From positions 25,172,001 through 25,236,000 of the forward strand of contig NC_135253.1 in NCBI RefSeq assembly GCF_964204865.1: DNA of 64,000 bases, given 5' to 3'. The notes under the pieces were generated by a model. That model saw only the letters and a list, made by a program, of their open reading frames with translations. It made no database searches and was not told the origin of the DNA. Source of the DNA: Styela clava. Taxonomy: Eukaryota. Every line of letters begins with the position of its first letter. Positions within the stretch are counted from its first letter, which is position 1. Below are positions 19,481 through 64,000 of this stretch, piece by piece. Made by a program: the position numbers and the translations under genes.

Positions 19481-21373
19481 TTTTCATTCTGGGAACGTTC
19501 AGATGAGATCATTCACGTTGATCTGGACGCGAATCATTCAAGACAATGCAGTTTGAGTTTACTAAACAAACAATTATGAATGGAATCCAAATTTTAATCA
19601 CATTTAAGATTTTTCAGCGTCATCAAATTCTATTGTTTTATGGTTGAGTTGATAAACAGATTATGATCAGGTCAAATATATTAAATATTTGGCGAATCTC
19701 TTCTCCCTCCTTCGTTTAGTAGTAACGTCGCAAAAAGATTGAAATTCTCAATCTCTTACGGGCGGAAGGAATGTCGATAATATGGCTTTATCATGAGGCA
19801 AACTCTCGTGCCATCACCAATCTATGTCGAATTTGGGATTCCACCCTATATATTGACTCCATTTCGCCACCTAGTGGCGCTCTATAAGACATTGGTGTAT
19901 CATGATGTCGATATTTTATATAATAGTAAAAGCCGGGTTAAGTTTGTTTGTTTTTTATTTTGTTTTCTAGTATGACTTCGTTTGCATACATGACTAAATA
20001 TTTTTTTCCGTTTTCGAGACTTTGTTACAAATTCCACAAATCTACTCTCACTACTACCCCGCAGCTTTTTCACAAGAGACACTTACTTTCGATGAGGGGA
20101 GTATTTTGTTCGAATCTTCTGTCAATAAGCAGTTTTGTCATTGTTGCGCTTCACGGGGTTAAAATGAATATTCAGAGCTGGTTTTAGGAAGACCGATATT
20201 TTTCTGATTCGGTAAATCGTACAGACTGCAACGCGTATATTTTTAAACATCATCTGTCTCTTAGGAATCAGTGGCTACTTGCTCGAAGCCTTGTTTAAAT
20301 TGAGAGCGTAGGAAAACCCTATACGAAACACCGAATACAGGAATTTATTTATCATTTCACACAATTCCATCTGAGGTTCCCGGGGCTTAGTAGCATGTTG
20401 CAAACTCAATCTTTATCACAGACACTCACTGGTGAACTAATCCTACCCACCCTGCCTCATGAACCCACCAACACGTGGCATTTAAAAAGGGATTAAAATA
20501 GGTTCAATTAATTCACTCAGCCCATTACGCAGCTCTATCTGGGATGCTTGGAGATGTGATAACGCGGTACAATAACAATCTATATCAATACCAATGATAT
20601 GCTTTCTAGTTTTCATTCCTGCAGTCATACCCAATCAATCTCATAACTATATCCACGCAAAGTTTTAAAAAACAATATTTTATTTTACATTTAAAAATAA
20701 CTCCAGCAATAACGCCTTAAAGCAAACATGGAACAGTCTCGCAGATTTATATTTTTTACAAGTAGATAGGTTTCAATGCCATGGTGTTACATTTCTGCAC
20801 GAATAAGAAGGATTTAGATTTAGAATGAGAGAGGGGGTGTTGAAATATGAAGCAATAAAGCAATGTCCGAATATGTGAACACGAATTTCATATTAAAATG
20901 TTTTCTCGTATTGTCATATAAAAGTGTTACCGCAAATTCAAATGGCGAATCAAAGTTTTGATGGAAATATGGAGTCCCTAACAATGCGGGGAAAATTAAA
21001 CGTAAACTATCAGATGCACACACAACATTATTCTAAATATTCAGAACTAAAAGTAAACTATACTCTATTTTTATGATTACGCGTTCGCATACCATTCTTT
21101 TGAACCTTTGAATACAGTATAGTTTTTTAATACTGCTAAATTAAAGTAGGACTTAGACCAAGGGTTGGCAACTTCTGGGCCGAATGTGGGAAAATCAAGT
21201 CCTCGGTGGGCCGGATTATATCATGAATAGTATTCAATATCTTAATCACATATATATTCGCTAATGCATGAAAGAAAGTTATAATTCGCGTTTAGAGTAA
21301 AGTTTGAACTTTACAAAAAATAGAGACCAAAAAACACATAATGAATTTATCATAATGTACACAGTTTTACCAA

Positions 21374-23934
21374 TCACATTTTTGTTTCAAAGACGCAACG
21401 CCCTCCAACGATTATCCAATCCGAGCATTTCTTTAGCGATGAAACTCCCGGAATATCGAGACAGTTTTCAAAATCTTTTGCGTTCTCTTCGGGGACGAGT
21501 ATCCATGCTATATGGGCCTGTGCTGCGAGAACGCACCTCCCTTCCAAAGACCCGGACCCGTTCGGGGGATTCTTGAACCTACAACTTCCAATTGTGGCGG
21601 GCTGGAAAGAAAGGAATAAATTAGGTTCGAATAAGAATGATTTACAGTTGTCAGACGTAATATTCTGATGAAATGCTGTTCACTTACAGTCCGGGTTGCG
21701 CGATTCAAACTACTTTTTTTCCACTGTCCTATTTTAGCAGTTATTGTGGTCATTGTTTTGAATAATAGCGCCACCTCGTGACGAAAAAGTTCTGTGTGTA
21801 TCATCACTAGACGGCGTTGGAACATGTGACATATTTACAGAAATAAACCCGGAGTTAGCAGGAAGCCGGTTACAAACGTAGGGATTATACATATCAACAT
21901 CACAAAAAATATGCCGGGATTAAAGTTTAAATGTAATGTTGTTTCAGACATAGAAGACAACTGTTGGGCTTTATATCCCAACGGTATTGAAAATACTTCT
22001 TTATTTACGATACAGCAGGTATTCCATACTGTTCTATACGAGGTCTAAAATTGAGATAAATCACCCTTATAGCAGGAAACACGCACAAAATAAAAAAATA
22101 AACATAATGCCGTTTGAGACATAAAATATGAATTCCCAGCAGACCGGGGTCAGAAACTATTTGAAAAGAGGCCCGCTTGTACAAAATATGACTCATCATA
22201 TTCTAAAAGAATGCTTTTTAGTGCAATAAAGTCATTTAACTGTTCACTTTCAACTTACAATCGGATGAGCCAATGTTGCCTTCGGTGCTTCGGGTGTTCG
22301 CATCAGTAGGGCTGAGTGAACTTGTTCGACCTGCGAAGTAAGAGTTGGATTATAAAAATTAGTTGTTTATCTGTGTGTCTACTTTATGGAAGGGTAGCTG
22401 GATTTTATCAAGTTAACTCTAGTAATGCTAAATTTTGTGTGAAGGGCGTCGCACCGATAGCACTTTGATTCATTGTTTAACACTGGTTGGCCATTACACA
22501 GAAATTGCGATGTTTGGCGAAATTCGAATCAATGGCGAGTGCCGTGACTTTGTTGTTACAGCGTAGGACTCATCTATGTTGGCTTAGCATGCTAGAGCTG
22601 GGTGTCCTTCGTCCACCAACCCGGGACAAAAAATTTCTCTCTAAGCGTATGAACATAAATCTGTACCGGTATTGCTTATGATTAAATTCACTACACTATA
22701 TAAAATATCCTTACCGTATATTGTGTTTTGCACATCCCAACATCCCCAACAACAATCTCAGAAGCCTTCACTGATCGAGGTCCGTTCACAAATATCGGTA
22801 GAATAGTTCTCTGTTTTGACATTCCGCCGATGATTCGCTGCTGCGACCCGGACCTCACTAGATTTGTAATACCAATTCATATTTATGTTAGTATCTTGAC
22901 TGAGCAGATGATTCAATATTTAGAATCGATAAAAATTAAAGGGAGGGGGTGGTGGTTGGGGGGTAATTTCCGAATAACCAGACTGGTATTATAATAAAAC
23001 GCACAGGAGTTTTTATTGGTCTTAGCGCATTATGGTATGAATATTCGGATTCTAGGAAGGAAAGTGTCTTATAAGGCAAACGATGTTTGAGGATAAAAAA
23101 GATTTAGAGTCCACCTATGGTCCGTAAAATAGGGCAAGCCTTTATACAAGTGGAAAACACGCGCTCCCCACCGACGCATGATTATCTGCATTCTTTTTTT
23201 ACGGTTCTGGGTCCGTCCAGTTTATCGAATCAATTCGATTCTGGTTTGCGTTCGATTTAATATTCCTGAACTCAGAGGTGAATAAAATAGTAAATTTTTG
23301 GCTTATTTTAAGATTCTGGACTTGCGTTCTATTTGATTTGATATTTCTAAGTCAATAGTGGATAAGAATAGTAAATTCATTGGCTTATTTTTTGACTGAA
23401 CCAATCCATAGGATCATCACCCACCTTTGTCAGGCTGCACAGCCATGGGCATCACGTCCTCGATCATTGTCAGAGTCATTCCTTTCTTATTGTCGCCATC
23501 CCAGTTCTCTGTCTCCTCTGGTGGCGTGTCTCCGTATTCCACGACTCGTCTTGTTTCAATCTTGAATCTTAAAATATAGATATAATGTATTAACCGGGTA
23601 GAAGTCCATAAAGTCAGTAGGTGGGATGTCCTGGCTGGTAAAGCGTTAGTCTTAGCGGTTATGACATTGTAGGTTACACATCAGGGCGTCATGGTATGAT
23701 ACATTTTATAGGCAATGCCTTGTAGATTGCTCCAAAAACAGTAATTCTTACATATCGTTAAATATCAGTAGAAGTTCTTGTACAGGGCTTAGTTGGACAA
23801 GCGTTTTTCGGAGATGACGTAGTCGGAATATTCGTGGTGTGAGGTCCCGCAGGAAATTTATAAACTGAGACGGGCGTTGCTACAGTTACAGTGACGTAGG
23901 CAGTGACGAAAACGAGAAATTTTATTCCTTCCAT
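21374..23934 (-). CDS. Paralog 2 of the secreted six-Cys protein; exons 23934-~23752 (in-frame TAA at 23760-23758), ~23567-23425, 22857-22715, 22330-22259, 21601-21374; 5' junction unresolved, possible nonsense allele, pseudogene or assembly indel
   Basis: Signal peptide MEGIKFLVFVTAYVTVTVA; FKIETRRVVEYGDTPP aligns with paralog 1 VKIRNVISIKFDDTPP. C-terminus GDVGMCKTQYT-VEQVHSALLMRTPEAPKATLAHPI-PATIGSCRFKNPPNGSGSLEGRCVLAAQAHIAWILVPEENAKDFENCLDIPGVSSLKKCSDWIIVGGRCVFETKM*. All six Cys and the last two intron positions and phases match paralog 1. Confidence 0.78.
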
Positions 23935-26900
23935 TGTTGTAGGTTTGATCTTCGTGAAATATAGTAAATAATTTGTATTTTACGATTCTGAAGCTGAAAT
24001 ATATTATATATTATGTTAGTCGATAGGCGAATATTTCAAGAGTTTTGCTACACACTGACACAAATGTATTTCCGTAACATTTTTATGTCCTCTACTGTTG
24101 GGGGAAGTTCCTGCGTCCTCTTACAATTCTACATACCAACTGACTAGTTATTCCCTTTCAATGCGTCCTATTCAATGCAGATTCGTATGCTCATAATGCA
24201 AGGATGCTGTAGCAAGATTAAAGATAACTATCCCAAGCGATCCATCTATCTTGCTGCGCATTAAAACAAATCTATTTCTGTAACGTTTCGTCTGGCCAAT
24301 GTCAGACTTCTCCAGACAAGCATACCTGTCTACTGTAAACTGTTTCCCTGAGAAAGTCTGTCTTCGTTCAGACGAAAAGTTACAGAAATACATTTGTATT
24401 ATACGCAAAGCTGTAAAATCTGTCTGAGGCATCAAAACTTTCGTTTGGCACTAATGATAATTTATCTCTGATTTGCCAATAACAAGGAAGTCGATGCACG
24501 TTTAGCTTCACGAATCGATACTGAGATAATACTTGTCTGCAAAATACGAATAATTAGTTACAATAAAATATTTAATTAAAATTTCTTCAGCTAATTAAGA
24601 ATGTTTTGCACAAAACCTTGTTACATATGAGCCACAAGGTGACACGACGGCGCCGAACAATTTCCCAAATTGCACTTTTCTGGTGAATTACATGAATTAC
24701 AAGTAATATTATGTTGAACATGCCTTAATTGCCATCTATTTCGTGGCTTATGGTTTATAATACTCTGTAATGCGACACCAACTTCAAAGACGGCGATCAT
24801 TTTCATAATTCACTGAGCTATTATGGTTATGAATGCGCATTTTGTCACAATCAATTTTTTATTATATGTTTTCCATACTTGTTTAATTCATATCGCATTT
24901 ATAAGCCTTCCACTCTGAGCAAGGCATTGTATAAGCAACATTTGTTTGTTAACAGCTACTATATCTTGAAAATATAGATGTCTTTTGGGTTCGGCATCAC
25001 CAACCCAATTTATTTCACCCTTGGTGAGGTGATGGGTATGGTGTTCGCCTGCAATGCAAACAGTTGCATACAACGCGAAACAACTAAGCCATGCATAAGA
25101 GAAAGGAGCATTGATTGAGACTGTGCGGCCACTACGTTTTACCTGTCATGCGCGCGTGTTTTGTTGGTGCTAGATATATGTCGATATAAAATCTAATCAT
25201 AGAAACCTGGCAAATAAATCCTGTTGAATTTCTGTTGTTTTAATTTGGTGTTAACTGGAAGAGTCATAGCGAATATAACAATAGACGAAAGCTAGCCCAT
25301 ATAAAATTAGAGCGAGTTTCCTTTAATTTTTATTACTTTCTTTAAGATTTCATTAATATTAAACCAATCATGACTATTTATACATTCCAGTATTTTTTGG
25401 CTATTAGGCTAACAATACAAATTCGAATCTGAATCAATATCTTGTCACCTTATCACCGACAGTCACTAAGGTCTGTATCACGGCGAGAATACGGCAATGT
25501 GACTTATATTCACACATTTATACCTTCCAGCTATTCTTGAGAAATTAAAAATTCCCGAGTCCTTAAGTGACATCTGACTGTTGTTTATAGAGCAACACCT
25601 CAAAATTCAGAGCCAAATTTAGTTTTCCACTAATACTAAACGCTTTTTCAATAATTCGTGTTTTGCTCTTGAGATTCCACTCGAACTACTTGACTTTATT
25701 GAGAAAATTACCATTAAAGTCTATTTATTTCAGAGAACGTCAAAAACTGAAATTTATTTTAAAAAGTTATCATCGTATACTTCAAATTTTCGTAAGTTGT
25801 AATGCACTGCAATAATTCAATAGTTCCCATTTTTGAAATCCGTTTTTGATCAAATAAATGAAAAGCAGAAAACAGTTGCCGTTAAGTGAAAGATATAGAT
25901 GACTGGTCCAAAAATAGGTTCACGTGTTGTTCTCTGCATATCAGTAGGTGCTGGTCTGGGTCTTTGTACTAAGCGAATATGGGGAAAGGCTTGTAAAAAG
26001 GCATGGCAACCGCTTGGCAGAGAAAGAGTACCAACATAGCGTTGAAATGCCGACGTTCAGAGCGTATACATGAATGCAAACCGCATTTAGCTGTTCGCTC
26101 GGAATTGCAAGCGTGCTGATTTTTATTAAGCCTGAACACTGAGTTCGACGCGAAAATCCAAATTTCGTATCGACTTGAAAATCAAATTTGAAGTTCGACT
26201 CAAACTTAGGGTCCTGAGAGCAAACTTGTTCATGAAAGACCTGGAATCTTAGCAGTAATTCCACAAATTAAATTCGGAATTCGGCTTCAACGCATAAATT
26301 GGTCCGAAACGAAACGCTCGTTATTTGAAGACCTCAGTCTGAAGTTGAAAGATCAATTAAAAGCGAATATTTCAGATGCTTGATCAGAACCAAAACAAAA
26401 TTTCCGTGCAATTCTATACTCAACGAGAAGTTGACACTCTTACTTTTTATTATCCGTCCCTTCTCATCTACCTTGTCTTAGCTTTGAATCTCTGACAACG
26501 ACACAGACACACCAATGTGGCTTTTATATCCATATCTGCTCGTCAGATTTTTTCGCCAAAATACGTCGACCTGTCATTCACATTCATCAAATATTTCGCC
26601 CGCAGCGATATTTTCTGTCGTCTGTTTATGTGTAACATGCTTCTGAAATAATGTGTGACGACACAAACCTATTTTCTGAATTTAACTGTTACCTCTTATT
26701 TTATAATTATGACACAACAAAATAAAATCATTATCTTTACAAAATTTGATTGTTTAATTGCGTCATTCATAAAAAAACTAATTAATTTAAATCAATTGTC
26801 AATTAAACTAAACATTGAAATAGACAATTCACGCACTTTGTAGCGTTGGATGACGTCATAGAGTACACCAATATTAATTACGCTAATAAATTATTATGCT

Positions 26901-28223: not shown

Positions 28224-28432
28224 CTGGCATGGGCAAACTACAACCCGCGGGCCAAATCAGGCCCATTGGTTGATTCAATCTGGCCCGCCTGATGCTCTGA
28301 TGCTGCCACGATCAAACTAAAACCAAATTTTAATGAGGCTTATTGTTTTCCACTTTTGGTTTTGTAACACTGTAAATATTGTTCATAAAATGCAACTTTC
28401 TACGTCACACTCACATGGCGCACCTCTGGTCT
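28224..28432 (+). mobile_element. hAT family B partial copy
   Basis: CTGGCATGGGCAAACTACAACCCGCGGGCCAAATC... shares blocks with 29390-29689. Confidence 0.72.
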
Positions 28433-29389: not shown

Positions 29390-29689
29390 CTGACATGGGC
29401 AAATTATGGCTCTCGGATCGAATCCGGCCCGTTAGGTAATTCAATCTGGCCCGCCTGATGCTGCCACAACCAAACTGAAATCTAATTTTGATGTTTCAGT
29501 TAAAAATGAATCAAGAAATTTGTTAAGATTGCGATTAAATTTAATCTTTTTTTTTGTTTTCCACTTTTGCTTTTGTAACACTGTAAATATTGTGCATAAA
29601 ATGTAACTTTTTACGTCACATTCACATGGCCCGCCAGTCTAGGCGGGCAAAATCTTTGGCCCGTGATTCGGAAACTTTGCCCATCTTTG
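29390..29689 (+). mobile_element. hAT family B near-full copy
   Basis: Termini ..CATGGGCAAA / TTTGCCCATC.., internal GGCCCG repeats typical of hAT subterminal sites. Confidence 0.75.
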
Positions 29690-31023: not shown

Positions 31024-33423
31024 TCATCTATTTTTCTTCAGTACGCAATATCCAGGTACAATAATATAGTCCCAACACTGCATGTCCGATGAGTTAGCAA
31101 TCGCAAAACAATTTTCTCTGTTATGATGGGCCATGTCAGCCTGTGTTGCTCTCACCCATGCACCATGCGGATAGCCAACCACCACACATTCCTCGTTGCC
31201 AGACCCTTGAGGAGGGTTCGAGAATCTGCACTCTATGTCTCTCGTGGCCTGAAAGATTAGATTGAAGTTTGATTAATGTGAAATATGAGTAATTTTACTG
31301 TTATTTTATATTAGTTTCATGAATGTTAAAAAGAATATGAGTTTGTCAATGCTTCTAGTCTTCATGAAGAATATTCAACATTTTATACGAATAATGAATG
31401 AAAATAATATAGAATTTATACATCAAGATATCTCTACTAATCTCTGGAAGTCTACTAGTTCCAATTCAATTATAGAGAATAAACCATTTTAGTAACTTTG
31501 CAGTAATTTGGATATCTTGCCCACAGCAGTAAATATACTCAACTGCTAAAATCGCATCTCGTATATTTTTCCTACTGTGATTTCTACTCGCTAAAGTCAG
31601 TATACGTTCTGTCACACTACATAAAACAAGCAAATATGCATTCAAAAAATGTTGTTGATGTCGCTAAGGCTTTAAATACTTACAAGTGCTTGATACAGAG
31701 TTACTTTCCGGTTCGCACTTCCTCTTGGAAAATATAAATATCCTTCGTTGATTCGTTCGGCCTTTAAAGAAAAATATTATATTAGTGTTGTAATGTGTCG
31801 ACTGGCTTGTACACAGAATGGCCCGAAGAGAAGATCTAAAACAGCGTTTCCTAACCAGTCGGTTGCGTTTACATTATTAGTTAATTGCATAGGGATACAT
31901 TGTTAATTTTCTCATACATGAACATTTCATTGTGGGTCGCACAGAAAAAAAAGGGCAATAAAAGTGGGTCGCAAACTAGTCGTTAGTAACTCTGTTATGC
32001 GCAAATCTTTTTACACATCATTAGTAACTCTTTTATCGCTCTCGCTTTTTTAAGTTGCTCAGAGCAAACGGTATTAAAATCTATATAGCTGATAACGCGA
32101 CAGTGGTATCTTGCAAATGTTCTATCAGAAATTGACAATTTTAACTTTTCTGTCAGTACTAATTCCACTTCAAAGTGAGATAATGCGGCCTTGATTTTAG
32201 AAAGAAAACTCAAATAAAAACGGGACACTTATCTTCGCAGTAATGCTTTTGTGAGGAATGAAACACTTACTGATTTTACAATTGTGCTGCAAGCTCCTAT
32301 ATCGCCAGTGATGGGAATCTTCTGCGATGAGATCAGAGCTCGAGCTGTTGGGGTCGAACTAGGACGTTTAGAAATGGCTGAATCAAGGCCGGGTGGGGGT
32401 ATAGCTTGTCTGAAGCCTAAAAATCTGGCCCCACTTCCGACTCTGGCTGTTGTTGTTGTTGTTGTTGCTCGTGTAGTGCTGGGGGGTGGAGGGGGAGTGT
32501 CGTCAAATTTAATCGAAATAACGTTTCTTATTTTTACTCCACGTCTCAACTGTAGAAGTCTCGATATGATTGAATTCCATACATGGGAATCGGCACTCGT
32601 TATCAAACCATTTCTCGCCTGTTAAATATTGAAACATAGTTAATTACTTATTTTTTATATTAACCTTTTGTGACTATTGATCCCTTTCCGGGGACTTTTA
32701 ACACTCATTCCCCCCTGTTTATCATTACAGTGGTTTTATTGCGTTATTTTGAATAGTAAATTCCAAATTATCTTATGATCAAACAATTTATGCATTCTAG
32801 CATTGTGGTCCCACTCTAACTGACCTGTGACCCCATTGCTGTGCGGGTGTATCCAGTTCGAATCCGAGTCTATGCAAACATTCAAAGTTCTTAATCATGG
32901 TGTGATATGTTAGATATTTCTTGGGAAGCAGATATTACAAGTGAAAAAAAGCCAAAAATAGCCCCAGTACGGTTGGTTCAAATTTCTTTCGTATAAACCA
33001 GTATCTGACTGGAGTTGCAATCCCGTAAAAACACACATTTTCGTGGGCCTAACCTATTGGCCAATCCCCAGTTCACTCCTACCGTTGAAACAATATGTAT
33101 TATTCGACTAATCATGTCAAATCTAAACTCTGTTCAATATTAGGAGTTTTTTGGAACCTTAACTTGTCGGAATATTCTGTAATTCATTTTTCTCCGAACG
33201 AATTTGCAACAAATAGTACATGAGCTTTCTCTAGCTCTGATCTCCCAACAAATATGAAAAACAAACAGCTACTCACCACCATGTTTATCGACTTAGGCGG
33301 ATCGATAGGAAATTTCGGCTGCGGGGTTGTCGGCCTTGGAATATTTTTGATCCCGACAACCTGAGGTGAAGGCGATGCTCGAACAAGTGACACAACCAGA
33401 AGTATATTTAGAAGGTGATTCAT
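31024..33423 (-). CDS. Secreted pre-pro-protein, 265 aa, with neurotrophin/Spaetzle-like six-Cys C-terminal domain (paralog 1); coding exons 33423-33277, 32618-32271, 31761-31684, 31248-31024
   Basis: Four exons joined by phase-0 GT-AG introns (gtgagt, gtaagt, gtaagt) give an uninterrupted ORF. It has a signal peptide MNHLLNILLVVSLVRA and a Pro/Thr-rich pro-region, then GDIGACSTIVKS-AERINEGYLYFPRGSANRKVTLYQAL-ATRDIECRFSNPPQGSGNEECVVVGYPHGAWVRATQADMAHHNRENCFAIANSSDMQCWDYIIVPGYCVLKKNR*. A paralog 7 kb away supports the model. The gene model is well supported; the family call is inference. Confidence 0.85.
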
Positions 33424-36400
33424 TTTCCCGCGCTTTTTATATCGTTTCGTTTGCGTAAGAGTTTCGATGTTTTCCCGCGCTTTTGTAGATAATTAATTCT
33501 AAGTTCTGTGACGTTAGTTTAGTAATATCTGAAACAAAAAATATTTATCAAATATACTATAAGAAAAAAGCAGCAATTTTACTTGTTTAATATCACGATT
33601 TCTTGCCAAGGTTAATGTGGCACTCGCAACACTATTACTTTTTATTTGAATTTTAAAAATCTCTTCTGTGGAAAATTATCGGGTCATAACGACAGCAGGT
33701 TTGATTTTTAAGACAGCCACATTAGTGCAGTGCCAATCAGGTGCGACGTTCATTATAAAGCCTTACTTATTCGCAATATATAAAGAAAACAATAACTCAA
33801 ACCAACATTTAATTCTACCTCTCCAGTATAGCTTGGTCAATATGCTAACAATAAGACAATTCAAATTTAGAATAAACCCAAGATGTAATATAGGCAACCT
33901 TGAAAGAAAGGTTATTTCAAATATAGTAGCTTTCTATGCACCAGTGGCTTTACAGGGTTCGAAGTGAAGCTCACCAAATCATTAAAATAAATCTCAAACA
34001 ATACTGCATACCTCTGCTCAATTCCATATAAAACTGTGAAACCAGAGAGAAAGAAACGGTATTTCAGTTACGCGTTACCTAAAATAATATCAGCCTTGCA
34101 AAAGCAACTCTCACTTCTCGCCACTGCACTAGATTCTCCCGTAATATGTGTACCAGGCCATAATTTTATTCCGATATTCCTTATTTTAGTTCTATTACAA
34201 GTTCGGGGACTGTCTGTGTTAGCCAAGTGAATATACCCCCTGCCCATAGGATTCAGTCCCTTTACACAACTTGATGTAAAATAGGTTACCGTGATAACGT
34301 AGGCGAACAAAATTAGTTACCTCCATATTGGTACACATACTTCTGAAGCGCCCTAGATTGAATTTTTATTCTTATGTTTTAGTCTCGCTAACATGCGTTA
34401 TTTATGCAAGTTATTATGAGTAATAACACTTTGGATTTTCAATTCGTGATTCAGAATTTTTTCTTTTGCAAACAAATTAATTTGAATTTTAAGTTTATGC
34501 AACAATTCAGAGATGGTTTCGATAAGACATAATAACCAGCTGTCACGTTCTGTGCCGAAATAAATTATTTTTGGAAAGCACTCGATGTCTCGTATTTCGT
34601 GGATTTCCGGTTAATCGGCGTGTCATATCTTTCGATCTAAGTATCATATAGCATAGAAATGAGTTTGGTTTTTATTCTACAGTTACTATTTCAAACCAAC
34701 AGTATAACCGTTATTAATATTTTTACCATTATTCTTCTAAACTACCATTGTACCGGGTAATTACAACATTGTTAAACGTTACCTTTCCAAATTACTGTTA
34801 TACCTGTTGTTATTAGTATTATTAACTATTACCCAAACTATCGTTATAACCGTTTTACTTTTATTCTTTTCAGCCGTTACCATTCAAACCATTCTTTTAA
34901 CCGTTTTACATTCATTTCTACCAACCGTTACTCTTGCAAACTATTTTTCTAACCGTTTTACTATTTTCCACTGGTATCGTTCCAAACTATCGGTATAACC
35001 GTTATATTGTTTTCATTTACTCTATCAAACCACCCGTAAAACGCTATTTTTCCAAGTACTGGTATAACGGTTAGTGATTTTCTCACTGTTACCCTTCCAG
35101 ACTATCCTGATATCTATGTGGAAATAATTCATGCGAACCGGAGTGAACCGGGTATAGTTTTGTTGCTCCTACCACCACAACCATTACCGAAAGTGCATAG
35201 GCATTAATAATTCATCATCAGTTTCACAAGGCAGACAAAACCTAATTATCCAAAGTAAATTCCATCGATTTATCAAAATCTAAAAATCTGACGTCATTTT
35301 AATGGTTTTATCCAACCCCGAAAAAATCGTAAAATTTTTTTTTCTGGAAATGAATGATAGTAAATTGATTATTTTACAATAACATGCATGACACATGCTC
35401 GCCCTGTTCTAGGGTCGCGGTTAACACAGACAAAAATTTTGCGTGCAAACGAGAGTTCACAACGTTACAATCTTTAATTCGTCGTCTTACATTACATCAC
35501 ACTGTTTTCATAGTTATTTTAAACATTGCACGAAATGACCCGAAAACACTGAATTTCTCGAGTAATTGGTGAGAAGCTAACAATATATGTATCGTTATTT
35601 TCTAATAATTGCCCTGGCCCAGTAGCATCTGCATCTCATTGACATTTTAACGAAAAACTGCTGGCACATTTAGCATTTCGATTTTAGGCCAAACATCATT
35701 GAAATTCTACATAATTACTGTCCAACATTCATTTTGATCGATTACATGTGATTGATGTTTGTCCGTATAATATGACTTGAGATCAATAGTTTTGCAGCAT
35801 TCTAAGGTAAACGCGTTCGTTTGCATTCTTAAAAAGTGTAAAAGCATTTTTGACTTTACTTCGATGCAACTGCGCACAAAAAAAGATTATTTCCACCAGT
35901 AATTTCCTTTTACTAGACAATTACATTAAGAATTGAACCTAGACACGGCTTATCGATGTATCTTCCATCCCTGGCAAATATTACTTATTTTTATGCGTTT
36001 AATTAAGCGATTGGCACTTTAATTTGTAATTTTCCGAACTCCAGACTGCGCAAGGGAAGGCCACACATGGCTGTAAATTTTGCGCTTTTTTAGTAAACAC
36101 TGACTTCTAACGAAAAAGTCCCGAAAATCTATATCGAAGTGTGCTTCTTACTTCTGAAAAAGCATGTCTTACCTTATTTCTATGTTCTGGCTCTGGAAAA
36201 ACATAACTTAAGCTTACTAAGTTATCACATTCGAACTTTTCACACAGGTCTGACTCCTAACGAAAAAGCCCCGAAAGTGTCTGCTCATAGTAACAACTTC
36301 CCCGCTTCCTTTCGACCGCATTGCCAACAATATACCAGTAGATATAGTAAGGTTTAGTCATGTTAGGTGTTATGTTACAGCCTGTCACAGGATGGCTCGC

Positions 36401-43874: not shown

Positions 43875-63998
<20,124 letters not shown>

Positions 63999-64000
63999 TA

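What the first reader, a model, noticed from the sequence alone, without database searches (positions are those of the whole stretch)
31024..32300. Possible 'knotless' cystine knot: Cys III and VI jointly absent, with a new Cys pair in the loop
Neurotrophin knots pair CI-CIV, CII-CV and CIII-CVI (established). Aligned by motif, both paralogs keep CI (GAC/GMC), CII (CRF.NPP), CIV (EECV/GRCV) and CV (GYCV/GRCV). Both lack CIII, since the CII-CIV spacing is only 14-16 versus 22 in NGF. Both lack CVI, reading C-V-L/F instead of C-x-C. Losing both partners of one disulfide is what a real structural change would look like. Both also carry an extra pair (ENC...x10-11...C) in an enlarged loop before the last strand. 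Inference: a rewired disulfide topology in which the ring cannot close.
Basis: inference. Interest (0 to 1): 0.7.

Follow-up and report, generated by a model that had tools for sequence, protein, structure and literature searches.

The report
Open-knot neurotrophin-like sea squirt proteins
A sea squirt has four related genes for likely secreted proteins that are predicted to fold like nerve growth factor but lack the two cysteines that close its knot and carry a new pair that likely staples an enlarged loop, in an animal group reported to have lost such growth factors.

Summary
Observation confirmed and extended. The window is Styela clava. The two tandem genes (B, 31024-33423; A, 21374-23934) are spliced in RNA-type contigs. 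Two more paralogs, D and E, lie elsewhere. All four domains have six Cys: CI, CII, CIV, CV plus an extra pair. CIII is missing and CVI is L/F. Paralog D's model (pLDDT 78) matches NGF best (Z 9.3). E's Atlas model matches Spaetzle/NGF (TM 0.6-0.8). B's own model failed (pLDDT 42), so its fold rests on homology. Gap-free motif matches to vertebrate neurotrophins fix the register. The extra pair is predicted far from the knot and would not re-close it; no S-S distance was measured. Loss of Cys3/6 is already published for invertebrate IL-17 type T1C, so the topology has precedent. I did not find it reported for the neurotrophin/Spaetzle branch, and neurotrophins are reported lost in Ciona. The scan earlier noted a neurotrophin-like cluster on other DNA of this genome (unchecked). 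Verdict: new variant of a known kind; receptor unknown.

The parts
33277..33423 (-). Gene B (S. clava LOC120325670) exon 1: hydrophobic N-terminus (likely signal peptide) and start of a Pro-rich pro-region
   Evidence: Kyte-Doolittle 10-residue maximum 2.8 at residue 5
32271..32618 (-). Gene B exon 2: Pro/Thr-rich pro-region, single Arg142 17 residues before CI, CI codon at 32291-32289
31684..31761 (-). Gene B exon 3 (78 nt): part of the CI-CII segment, no Cys
   Evidence: 78-nt gap in spliced contigs
31024..31248 (-). Gene B exon 4: CII 31230, CIV 31188 (no CIII between them), extra pair 31110 and 31077, CV 31047, Leu at the CVI position 31041, stop 31026-31024
23804..23934 (-). Gene A (LOC120325669) exon 1, 5' part shared with transcripts: likely signal peptide
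23607..23803 (-). Segment of this haplotype that replaces the 3' end of gene A exon 1; the frame from the ATG stops at 23760-23758 (likely loss-of-function allele)
23425..23567 (-). Gene A exon 2 (pro-region)
22715..22857 (-). Gene A exon 3: single Arg 15 residues before CI; CI codon at 22732-22730
22259..22330 (-). Gene A exon 4 (72 nt): part of the CI-CII segment
21374..21601 (-). Gene A exon 5: CII 21583, CIV 21535, extra pair 21463 and 21427, CV 21397, Phe at the CVI position 21391

Best explanation
Genes A and B, with paralogs D and E, are spliced sea-squirt genes for likely secreted precursors whose end domain is predicted to fold like nerve growth factor/Spaetzle but lacks knot cysteines III and VI, so it would hold its four strands with only two core bonds (I-IV, II-V), plus a likely third bond that staples an enlarged finger loop. 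Shown: gene structure, splicing, the Cys pattern and its conservation in 4 of 4 paralogs. Predicted: the fold (directly for D and E, by homology for A and B) and the register. Inferred: pairing of the extra Cys with each other (about 0.75); release of the domain by a protease, furin-type in D and cleavage after a single Arg in A and B (about 0.6); action as a non-covalent NGF-like dimer (about 0.6). My most likely receptor class is an LRR-ectodomain receptor, Toll-like rather than Trk (about 0.35; untested).
For: Fold: D model pLDDT 77.6, pTM 0.68. Best matches among 48161 chains are NGF (Z 9.3, rmsd 2.7, 91 aligned; Z 9.2, rmsd 3.3, 95 aligned), then coagulogen 6.3, IL-17A 5.6, PTTH 4.5, Spaetzle 4.2. 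All 34 rows with Z>=2 are cystine-knot proteins by title (family membership from my knowledge). The first 24 listed Foldseek rows are neurotrophins. E domain in the Atlas: Spaetzle cluster score 0.92; structure rows 1-7 TM 0.64-0.80, those with a family label being NGF/Spaetzle. Homology of A and B to D and E: all 6 whole-domain pairs beat 1000 of 1000 shuffles (z 4.8-25.7); a D+E profile scores A at E 3.6e-7 and B at 0.003. Register against 16 vertebrate neurotrophins (counted by eye): Ala at CIV+9 in 16 of 16 and in 4 of 4 paralogs; aromatic/Ile/hydrophobic at CV-7/-6/-4 in all four; Gly at CI-5 (15 of 16) and an acidic residue at CI-4 (14 of 16) also in A and B. The D model ends at residue 121 against NGF 113, which puts its last Cys on NGF 108 (CV) if the last strand has no gap. 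Genes A and E share a phase-0 intron five codons after CI, and B has one six codons after. In the D model the second extra Cys (106) and CV (116) lie on one continuous strand, 104-120, ten residues apart. All four have a hydrophobic N-terminus and no later segment hydrophobic enough for a membrane helix.
Against: B's own model is poor (pLDDT 41.7) and matches nothing (best E 1.1; best Z 2.3). B's Atlas search gave PAN-type feature hits under 0.9 and TM <=0.35 by query. The CI-CII half of B shows no similarity to D or E (z -0.1 and 0.2), and A's is weak (z 1.4 and 2.2). No Pfam NGF or Spaetzle match at E<=10 for any member, and no cystine-knot hit by sequence in the PDB. Foldseek's best E for D is 4.2e-3, with none <=1e-3, and the five D models range from pLDDT 52 to 78. 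AlphaFold may impose a learned NGF shape. No disulfide distance was measured. A, B and E lack an R-x-x-R site. Only one non-RefSeq relative was found, a fragment.
Confidence: 0.72

Rival explanations
1. Same fold and same loss of III-VI, but the extra cysteines join two chains or a partner protein (a covalent dimer) instead of closing the loop.
For: Spaetzles and some invertebrate neurotrophins form covalent dimers through an extra Cys (PMC2772990 section 16). The extra Cys sit on an exposed finger in the D model.
Against: The two are conserved together in 5 of 5 sequences and lie 9-12 residues apart. Both the D and B models place a short strand with the first next to the strand start with the second. 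The Spaetzle-type dimer Cys next to CV is absent.
Confidence: 0.1
2. They are diverged IL-17/Trunk-branch proteins of the published T1C type (Cys3/6 lost), not neurotrophin/Spaetzle relatives.
For: T1C has exactly this loss (PMC11087794). IL-17A scores Z 5.6 and PTTH 4.5. IL-17 clusters appear among the Atlas hits (0.84; TM 0.55).
Against: NGF scores Z 9.3 with rmsd 2.7, against rmsd 5.0-5.4 for IL-17. Atlas ranks Spaetzle/NGF first. The motifs around CI, CIV and CV match neurotrophins. The paper reports T1 types lost in tunicates.
Confidence: 0.08
3. D and E are open-knot NGF-like proteins, but A and B have degenerated further: only the C-terminal hairpin folds and the CI-CII half no longer forms the first finger, or they adopt another small disulfide fold such as a partial PAN/apple domain.
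For: B model residues 1-68 are under pLDDT 50. No N-half similarity of B to D or E. PAN feature hits 0.83-0.88. A disrupted allele of A segregates.
Against: A and B keep CI-CII spacing (35, 38; D and E 37), a neurotrophin-like motif before CI, a shared intron position and mutual N-half similarity (z 6.3). A shallow 5-row alignment explains a poor model. The PAN hits are below the tool's 0.9 bar.
Confidence: 0.1

Closest known systems
Vertebrate neurotrophins (NGF, BDNF, NT-3, NT-4; PF00243; PDB 1sg1, 3ij2)
   Same: Predicted fold (Z 9.3). Signal peptide, pro-region and C-terminal domain. CI, CII, CIV, CV in register with flanking motifs. No extra Cys next to CV.
   Different: CIII and CVI absent, whereas all six are invariant in gnathostome NGF (PMC13663574 passages). 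CII-CIV segment 3-8 residues shorter. CIV-CV segment 43-49 residues against 27, with a new Cys pair. Domain split by introns. 10-18% identity and no Pfam match.
Spaetzle family (PF16077; PDB 3e07), especially Drosophila Spz6
   Same: Top Atlas hits. Intron-split domain. Pro three residues before CV in B, D and E, probably the 'Pro136' of PMC2772990 (position inferred, figure not seen). [quoted passage not shown]
   Different: No dimer Cys next to CV. Spaetzle scores only Z 4.2. Which two Cys Spz6 lacks is not stated in the passages I saw, so whether this is the same loss is open.
IL-17 structural type T1C (invertebrate IL-17s; PMC11087794)
   Same: Loss of the Cys3/6 disulfide with 1/4 and 2/5 kept, the same open topology.
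   Different: Different branch of the superfamily, with a lower fold match (Z 5.6, rmsd 5.4). T1 types are reported lost in tunicates. No finger-loop pair is described in the passages read.
Chordate IL-17 type T2 (IL-17A/F)
   Same: An incomplete cystine knot that still works as a ligand.
   Different: It loses the threading bond 1/4, not a ring bond.

Membership tests
Cystine-knot growth-factor fold | Two pairs of antiparallel strands in the NGF arrangement | tested here: met
   Met on predicted models of paralogs D and E; carried to A and B by homology only
Cystine-knot growth-factor fold | The same fold in gene B's own model | tested here: inconclusive
   pLDDT 41.7; only the C-terminal hairpin is formed; no fold match
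Cystine-knot growth-factor fold | True knot: ring II-V and III-VI threaded by I-IV | tested here: not met
   CIII and CVI absent in 4 of 4 paralogs and in the fragment
Neurotrophins (PF00243) | Six invariant knot Cys with C-x-C end | tested here: not met
Neurotrophins (PF00243) | Pfam NGF profile match | tested here: not met
   No match at E<=10 for A, B, D, E
Neurotrophins (PF00243) | Signal peptide, pro-region, C-terminal mature domain | tested here: met
   Hydropathy scan only, no signal-peptide predictor
Neurotrophins (PF00243) | Furin-type site before the mature domain | tested here: inconclusive
   Present in D (sites at 282 and 289; CI at 299); no R-x-x-R in A, B or E
Neurotrophins (PF00243) | Precursor coded by a single exon (canonical deuterostome type, PMC2772990 section 16) | tested here: not met
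   Domain split by 1-2 introns in all four
Neurotrophins (PF00243) | Homodimer; binding to Trk/p75 | not testable with these tools
   Needs binding assays
Spaetzle (PF16077) | Pfam Spaetzle profile match | tested here: not met
   No match at E<=10; the Atlas language-model and structure search does rank Spaetzle first for E
Spaetzle (PF16077) | Extra Cys next to CV for a covalent dimer (found in some Spz paralogs) | tested here: not met
   Y, R, H, A or R at that place
Spaetzle (PF16077) | Protease activation and Toll binding | not testable with these tools
   Needs biochemistry
IL-17 type T1C | Cys3/6 lost, 1/4 and 2/5 kept | tested here: met
IL-17 type T1C | IL-17 family sequence or closest fold | tested here: not met
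   No Pfam IL17 match; NGF Z 9.3 against IL-17A Z 5.6
PAN/apple domain | Alpha/beta PAN fold | tested here: inconclusive
   Feature hits 0.83-0.88 for B only; homologs D and E model as NGF-like, and no PAN row appears

The most novel reading that the evidence does not exclude
Ascidians did not lose the neurotrophin/Spaetzle ligand line. It survives as a clade that opened its cystine knot (CIII segment shortened, CVI replaced) and gained a stapled finger loop. The clade signals through a receptor other than Trk or p75, most likely a Toll-like receptor, which would be a Spaetzle-Toll-like ligand-receptor pairing in the sister group of vertebrates.
Probability: 0.2. Interest if true: 0.85.

Novelty: new variant of a known kind. 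Interest (0 to 1): 0.52.

Why it matters
Neurotrophins are described as lost in Ciona (PMC2586362, PMC2772990). A 2026 chordate survey lists no candidate ligand gene for Styela clava and scores NGFR as not recovered (PMC13663574 table S1). These four unannotated genes are invisible to Pfam yet model as NGF/Spaetzle-like, so the apparent loss may partly be a detection failure. They also provide a natural test of whether an NGF-type protein can fold and signal with its ring open, since the six Cys are invariant in vertebrate NGF. They would show that the Cys3/6 loss known from IL-17 T1C arose again in another branch. They give concrete ligands for a receptor hunt in tunicates.

Tried and rejected
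PAN/apple reading of B: below the score bar and contradicted by the models of D and E. Alternative register with the last Cys as CVI: it would put Asp (4 of 5 sequences) where neurotrophins have the conserved Ile and would break the CIV+9 Ala match. Pfam scans and PDB sequence searches gave nothing relevant. B's model gave no fold match. The dimer job for two copies of B gave no verdict (score 0.00, alignment not used, fold uncertain), which is no evidence either way. Genome searches with Pfam NGF, Spaetzle, the Trk-type LRRCT_2 and the p75 TM model found nothing over cut-off. These are weak exon-by-exon tests and do not show absence. Of the 4 hits of the A+B profile against 1.84 billion representatives, two were the queries' own genes, one was the fragment P0005, and P0006 was dropped as a chance match (bacterial-type carbohydrate-binding protein). 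Weak genome hits L007, L019, L022 and L023 were inspected and dropped. A family profile run over the window and 9 fetched loci found no fifth paralog. No run was on record as RNA; the RNA label is the tool's guess, though the contigs are spliced. No Ciona, Phallusia or other named ortholog was found; these searches need shared words or were run with only the A+B profile. Supplements of PMC2772990 (alignment with Spz6) could not be read, and the T1C figure in the PMC11087794 supplement was not found as text; both bear on how close the precedents are.

Full report
Source and gene models. The last exon of the finding matches Styela clava LOC120325670 at 100%, and the paralog's last exon matches LOC120325669; both are 'uncharacterized'. 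Gene B has four exons on the - strand that give an intact 265-aa protein, equal to XP_039247698.2. Of the four runs laid, the two RNA-type runs X1 and X5 (two studies) each show one contig with exons 1, 2 and 4 and a 78-nt gap that fits exon 3. Gene A's introns 2-4 are bridged with GT-AG ends in 3 of 3 RNA-type runs and not in the presumed DNA run. The RNA label is the tool's guess.

Observation. Each protein has exactly six Cys, all in the C-terminal domain of about 110 residues. The residues between successive Cys number 38-13-25-10-9 in B and 35-15-23-11-9 in A. Human NGF, counted by eye from PMC3280201 supplement S2, has 42-9-11-27-1.

A family of four. Searching the genome with A's last exon gave two weak extra hits (E 0.19 each) that proved to be genes: D (LOC120335761, 411 aa, contig C2) and E (LOC120325666, 454 aa, ending about 20 kb left of the window). 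Their last six Cys are spaced 37-18-26-12-9 and 37-14-23-9-9. A 76-aa fragment from an unnamed public assembly (P0005, E 6e-12) has the last five Cys, spaced 15-23-11-9. All 6 whole-domain pairs beat 1000 of 1000 shuffles (z 4.8-25.7), and a D+E profile finds A (E 3.6e-7) and B (0.003). D and E were picked by similarity to A, so these scores are not fully independent. The CI-CII half of B is not detectably similar to D or E (z -0.1, 0.2). Exon searches found no fifth member, but they are lower bounds.

Fold. D, folded with the five-row alignment, gave pLDDT 77.6. Against 48161 representative chains the two best are NGF (Z 9.3, rmsd 2.7, 91 aligned; Z 9.2, rmsd 3.3, 95 aligned), followed by coagulogen 6.3, IL-17A 5.6, PTTH 4.5 and Spaetzle 4.2. 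All 34 rows at Z>=2 are cystine-knot proteins by title. Foldseek lists 24 neurotrophin rows first, though its best E is only 4.2e-3; the viral library gives poxvirus NGF-like proteins first. Independently, the Atlas ranks a Spaetzle cluster first for E's domain (0.92, 198 shared features) and finds TM 0.80 to a mixed NGF/Spaetzle cluster and 0.70-0.72 to Spaetzle-3, NT-4 and BDNF clusters. B's own model failed (pLDDT 41.7). It forms only the long C-terminal hairpin, in the same places as D, and matches nothing. For A and B the fold is therefore inferred from homology; A was not folded.

Register. Against the 16 vertebrate neurotrophins, the blocks anchored on each Cys align without gaps. Before the first Cys, A and B have Gly at -5 and Asp at -4 (Gly in 15 of 16, acidic in 14 of 16). 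After the third Cys, Ala stands at +9 in 16 of 16 neurotrophins (counted from CIV) and in 4 of 4 paralogs; the fragment has Val. Before the last Cys the pattern aromatic -7, Ile/Val -6, hydrophobic -4 equals that before CV. The structural match ends with D residue 121 on NGF 113, which puts the last Cys on NGF 108 if that strand has no gap. A and E share a phase-0 intron five codons after the first Cys and B has one six codons after, which supports CI being the same position. So CIII and CVI, partners in NGF (established knowledge: ring II-V and III-VI, threaded by I-IV), are both absent, and the CII-CIV stretch is 3-8 residues shorter.

Extra pair. The second extra Cys is ten residues before CV in 5 of 5 sequences. 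In the D model both lie on one continuous strand (104-120), which means roughly 30 A apart (inference from strand geometry), so this Cys sits at the finger tip, away from the core. The first extra Cys lies on a short strand (93-95) in the enlarged loop. The simplest reading is an intrachain bond that staples the loop and does not rebuild the knot.

Likely working. All four have a hydrophobic N-terminus and no membrane-like segment later. D has furin-type sites just before the domain; A, B and E have no R-x-x-R. A and B do have a single Arg 15 and 17 residues before CI, the distance at which mature NGF starts (CI is residue 15). I infer secreted precursors cut to release a ligand domain that acts as a non-covalent dimer; the dimer and the receptor are untested. 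NGF and Spaetzle both use LRR-ectodomain receptors (PMC11087794 passage), and Trk and p75 are reported absent in Ciona. A Toll-like receptor is therefore my single most likely guess, at about 0.35.

Comparison with what is known. PMC11087794 (passages; supplements searched) classes invertebrate IL-17 knots by lost bonds: T1C has lost Cys3/6 while the other two bonds still link the four strands. The open topology is thus a published type in another branch. PMC2586362 (passages) says Spz6 lacks two conserved Cys and has three extra ones, without naming them in the text seen, and that neurotrophins were lost in Ciona. PMC2772990 (passages and section 16; supplements unreadable) says Ciona lacks the system, describes extra Cys in Spz3/7/8, and notes intron-split precursors and a conserved Pro in Spaetzles. 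PMC13663574 (passages and table S1 rows) finds all six Cys invariant in gnathostome NGF and lists no gene for S. clava, while stating that non-assignment is not absence. PMC7535936 (passages) added nothing on tunicates. Eight paper searches (listings only, apart from the papers named) showed no description of these genes or of a III-VI loss in the neurotrophin/Spaetzle branch. The library lacks most subscription journals.

Earlier scan notes. An unreviewed note describes about 20 neurotrophin-shaped genes on another piece of this genome. A look-up with E's sequence found no look-alike window, so I cannot say whether it is the same family.

Verdict. The feature is real and conserved across the family. 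It works like a neurotrophin/Spaetzle-type ligand but fails the six-Cys definition of either family. New variant of a known kind; interest 0.52.

Noticed in passing
window 23607-23803 (gene A exon 1 / intron 1): This haplotype carries a replaced segment that ends the reading frame at 23760-23758. RNA-type contigs of three studies have 118 other letters here, in frame, as does the older RefSeq model (278 aa; the current one is a 165-aa form without signal peptide). One presumed DNA run holds both versions at similar depth (8.7 and 7.9), so it is likely a segregating loss-of-function allele. Part of the segment resembles three other genome places at 80-87%.
   Followed up: partly
G000:C4:25151874-25164300 (L010, L011) and G000:C2:610839-611815 (L013): Paralogs E and D have long pro-regions with 10 extra Cys each, including C-x3-C motifs near the N-terminus. 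A and B have Cys-free Pro/Thr-rich pro-regions.
   Followed up: no
window about 44700-64000 and L017, + strand: Exons that look like a ferlin (otoferlin-like) gene right of the cluster; label recalled from motifs, not tested.
   Followed up: no
window 21330-23950: Run X2 shows contig depth of about 400-1100 over gene A exons, against 20-54 in X5 and X6. Contig depth is a poor measure, but it may point to a tissue or condition with high expression.
   Followed up: no
window about 21260-21310, 24035-24400, 28330-28400, 29420-29610, 34150-34350: High-copy interspersed repeats between the genes, seen as extreme depth in the presumed DNA run.
   Followed up: no
window 1-21000: RefSeq numbering skips from LOC120325666 (E) to ...669 (A); the family profile found no further paralog between them.
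   Followed up: partly
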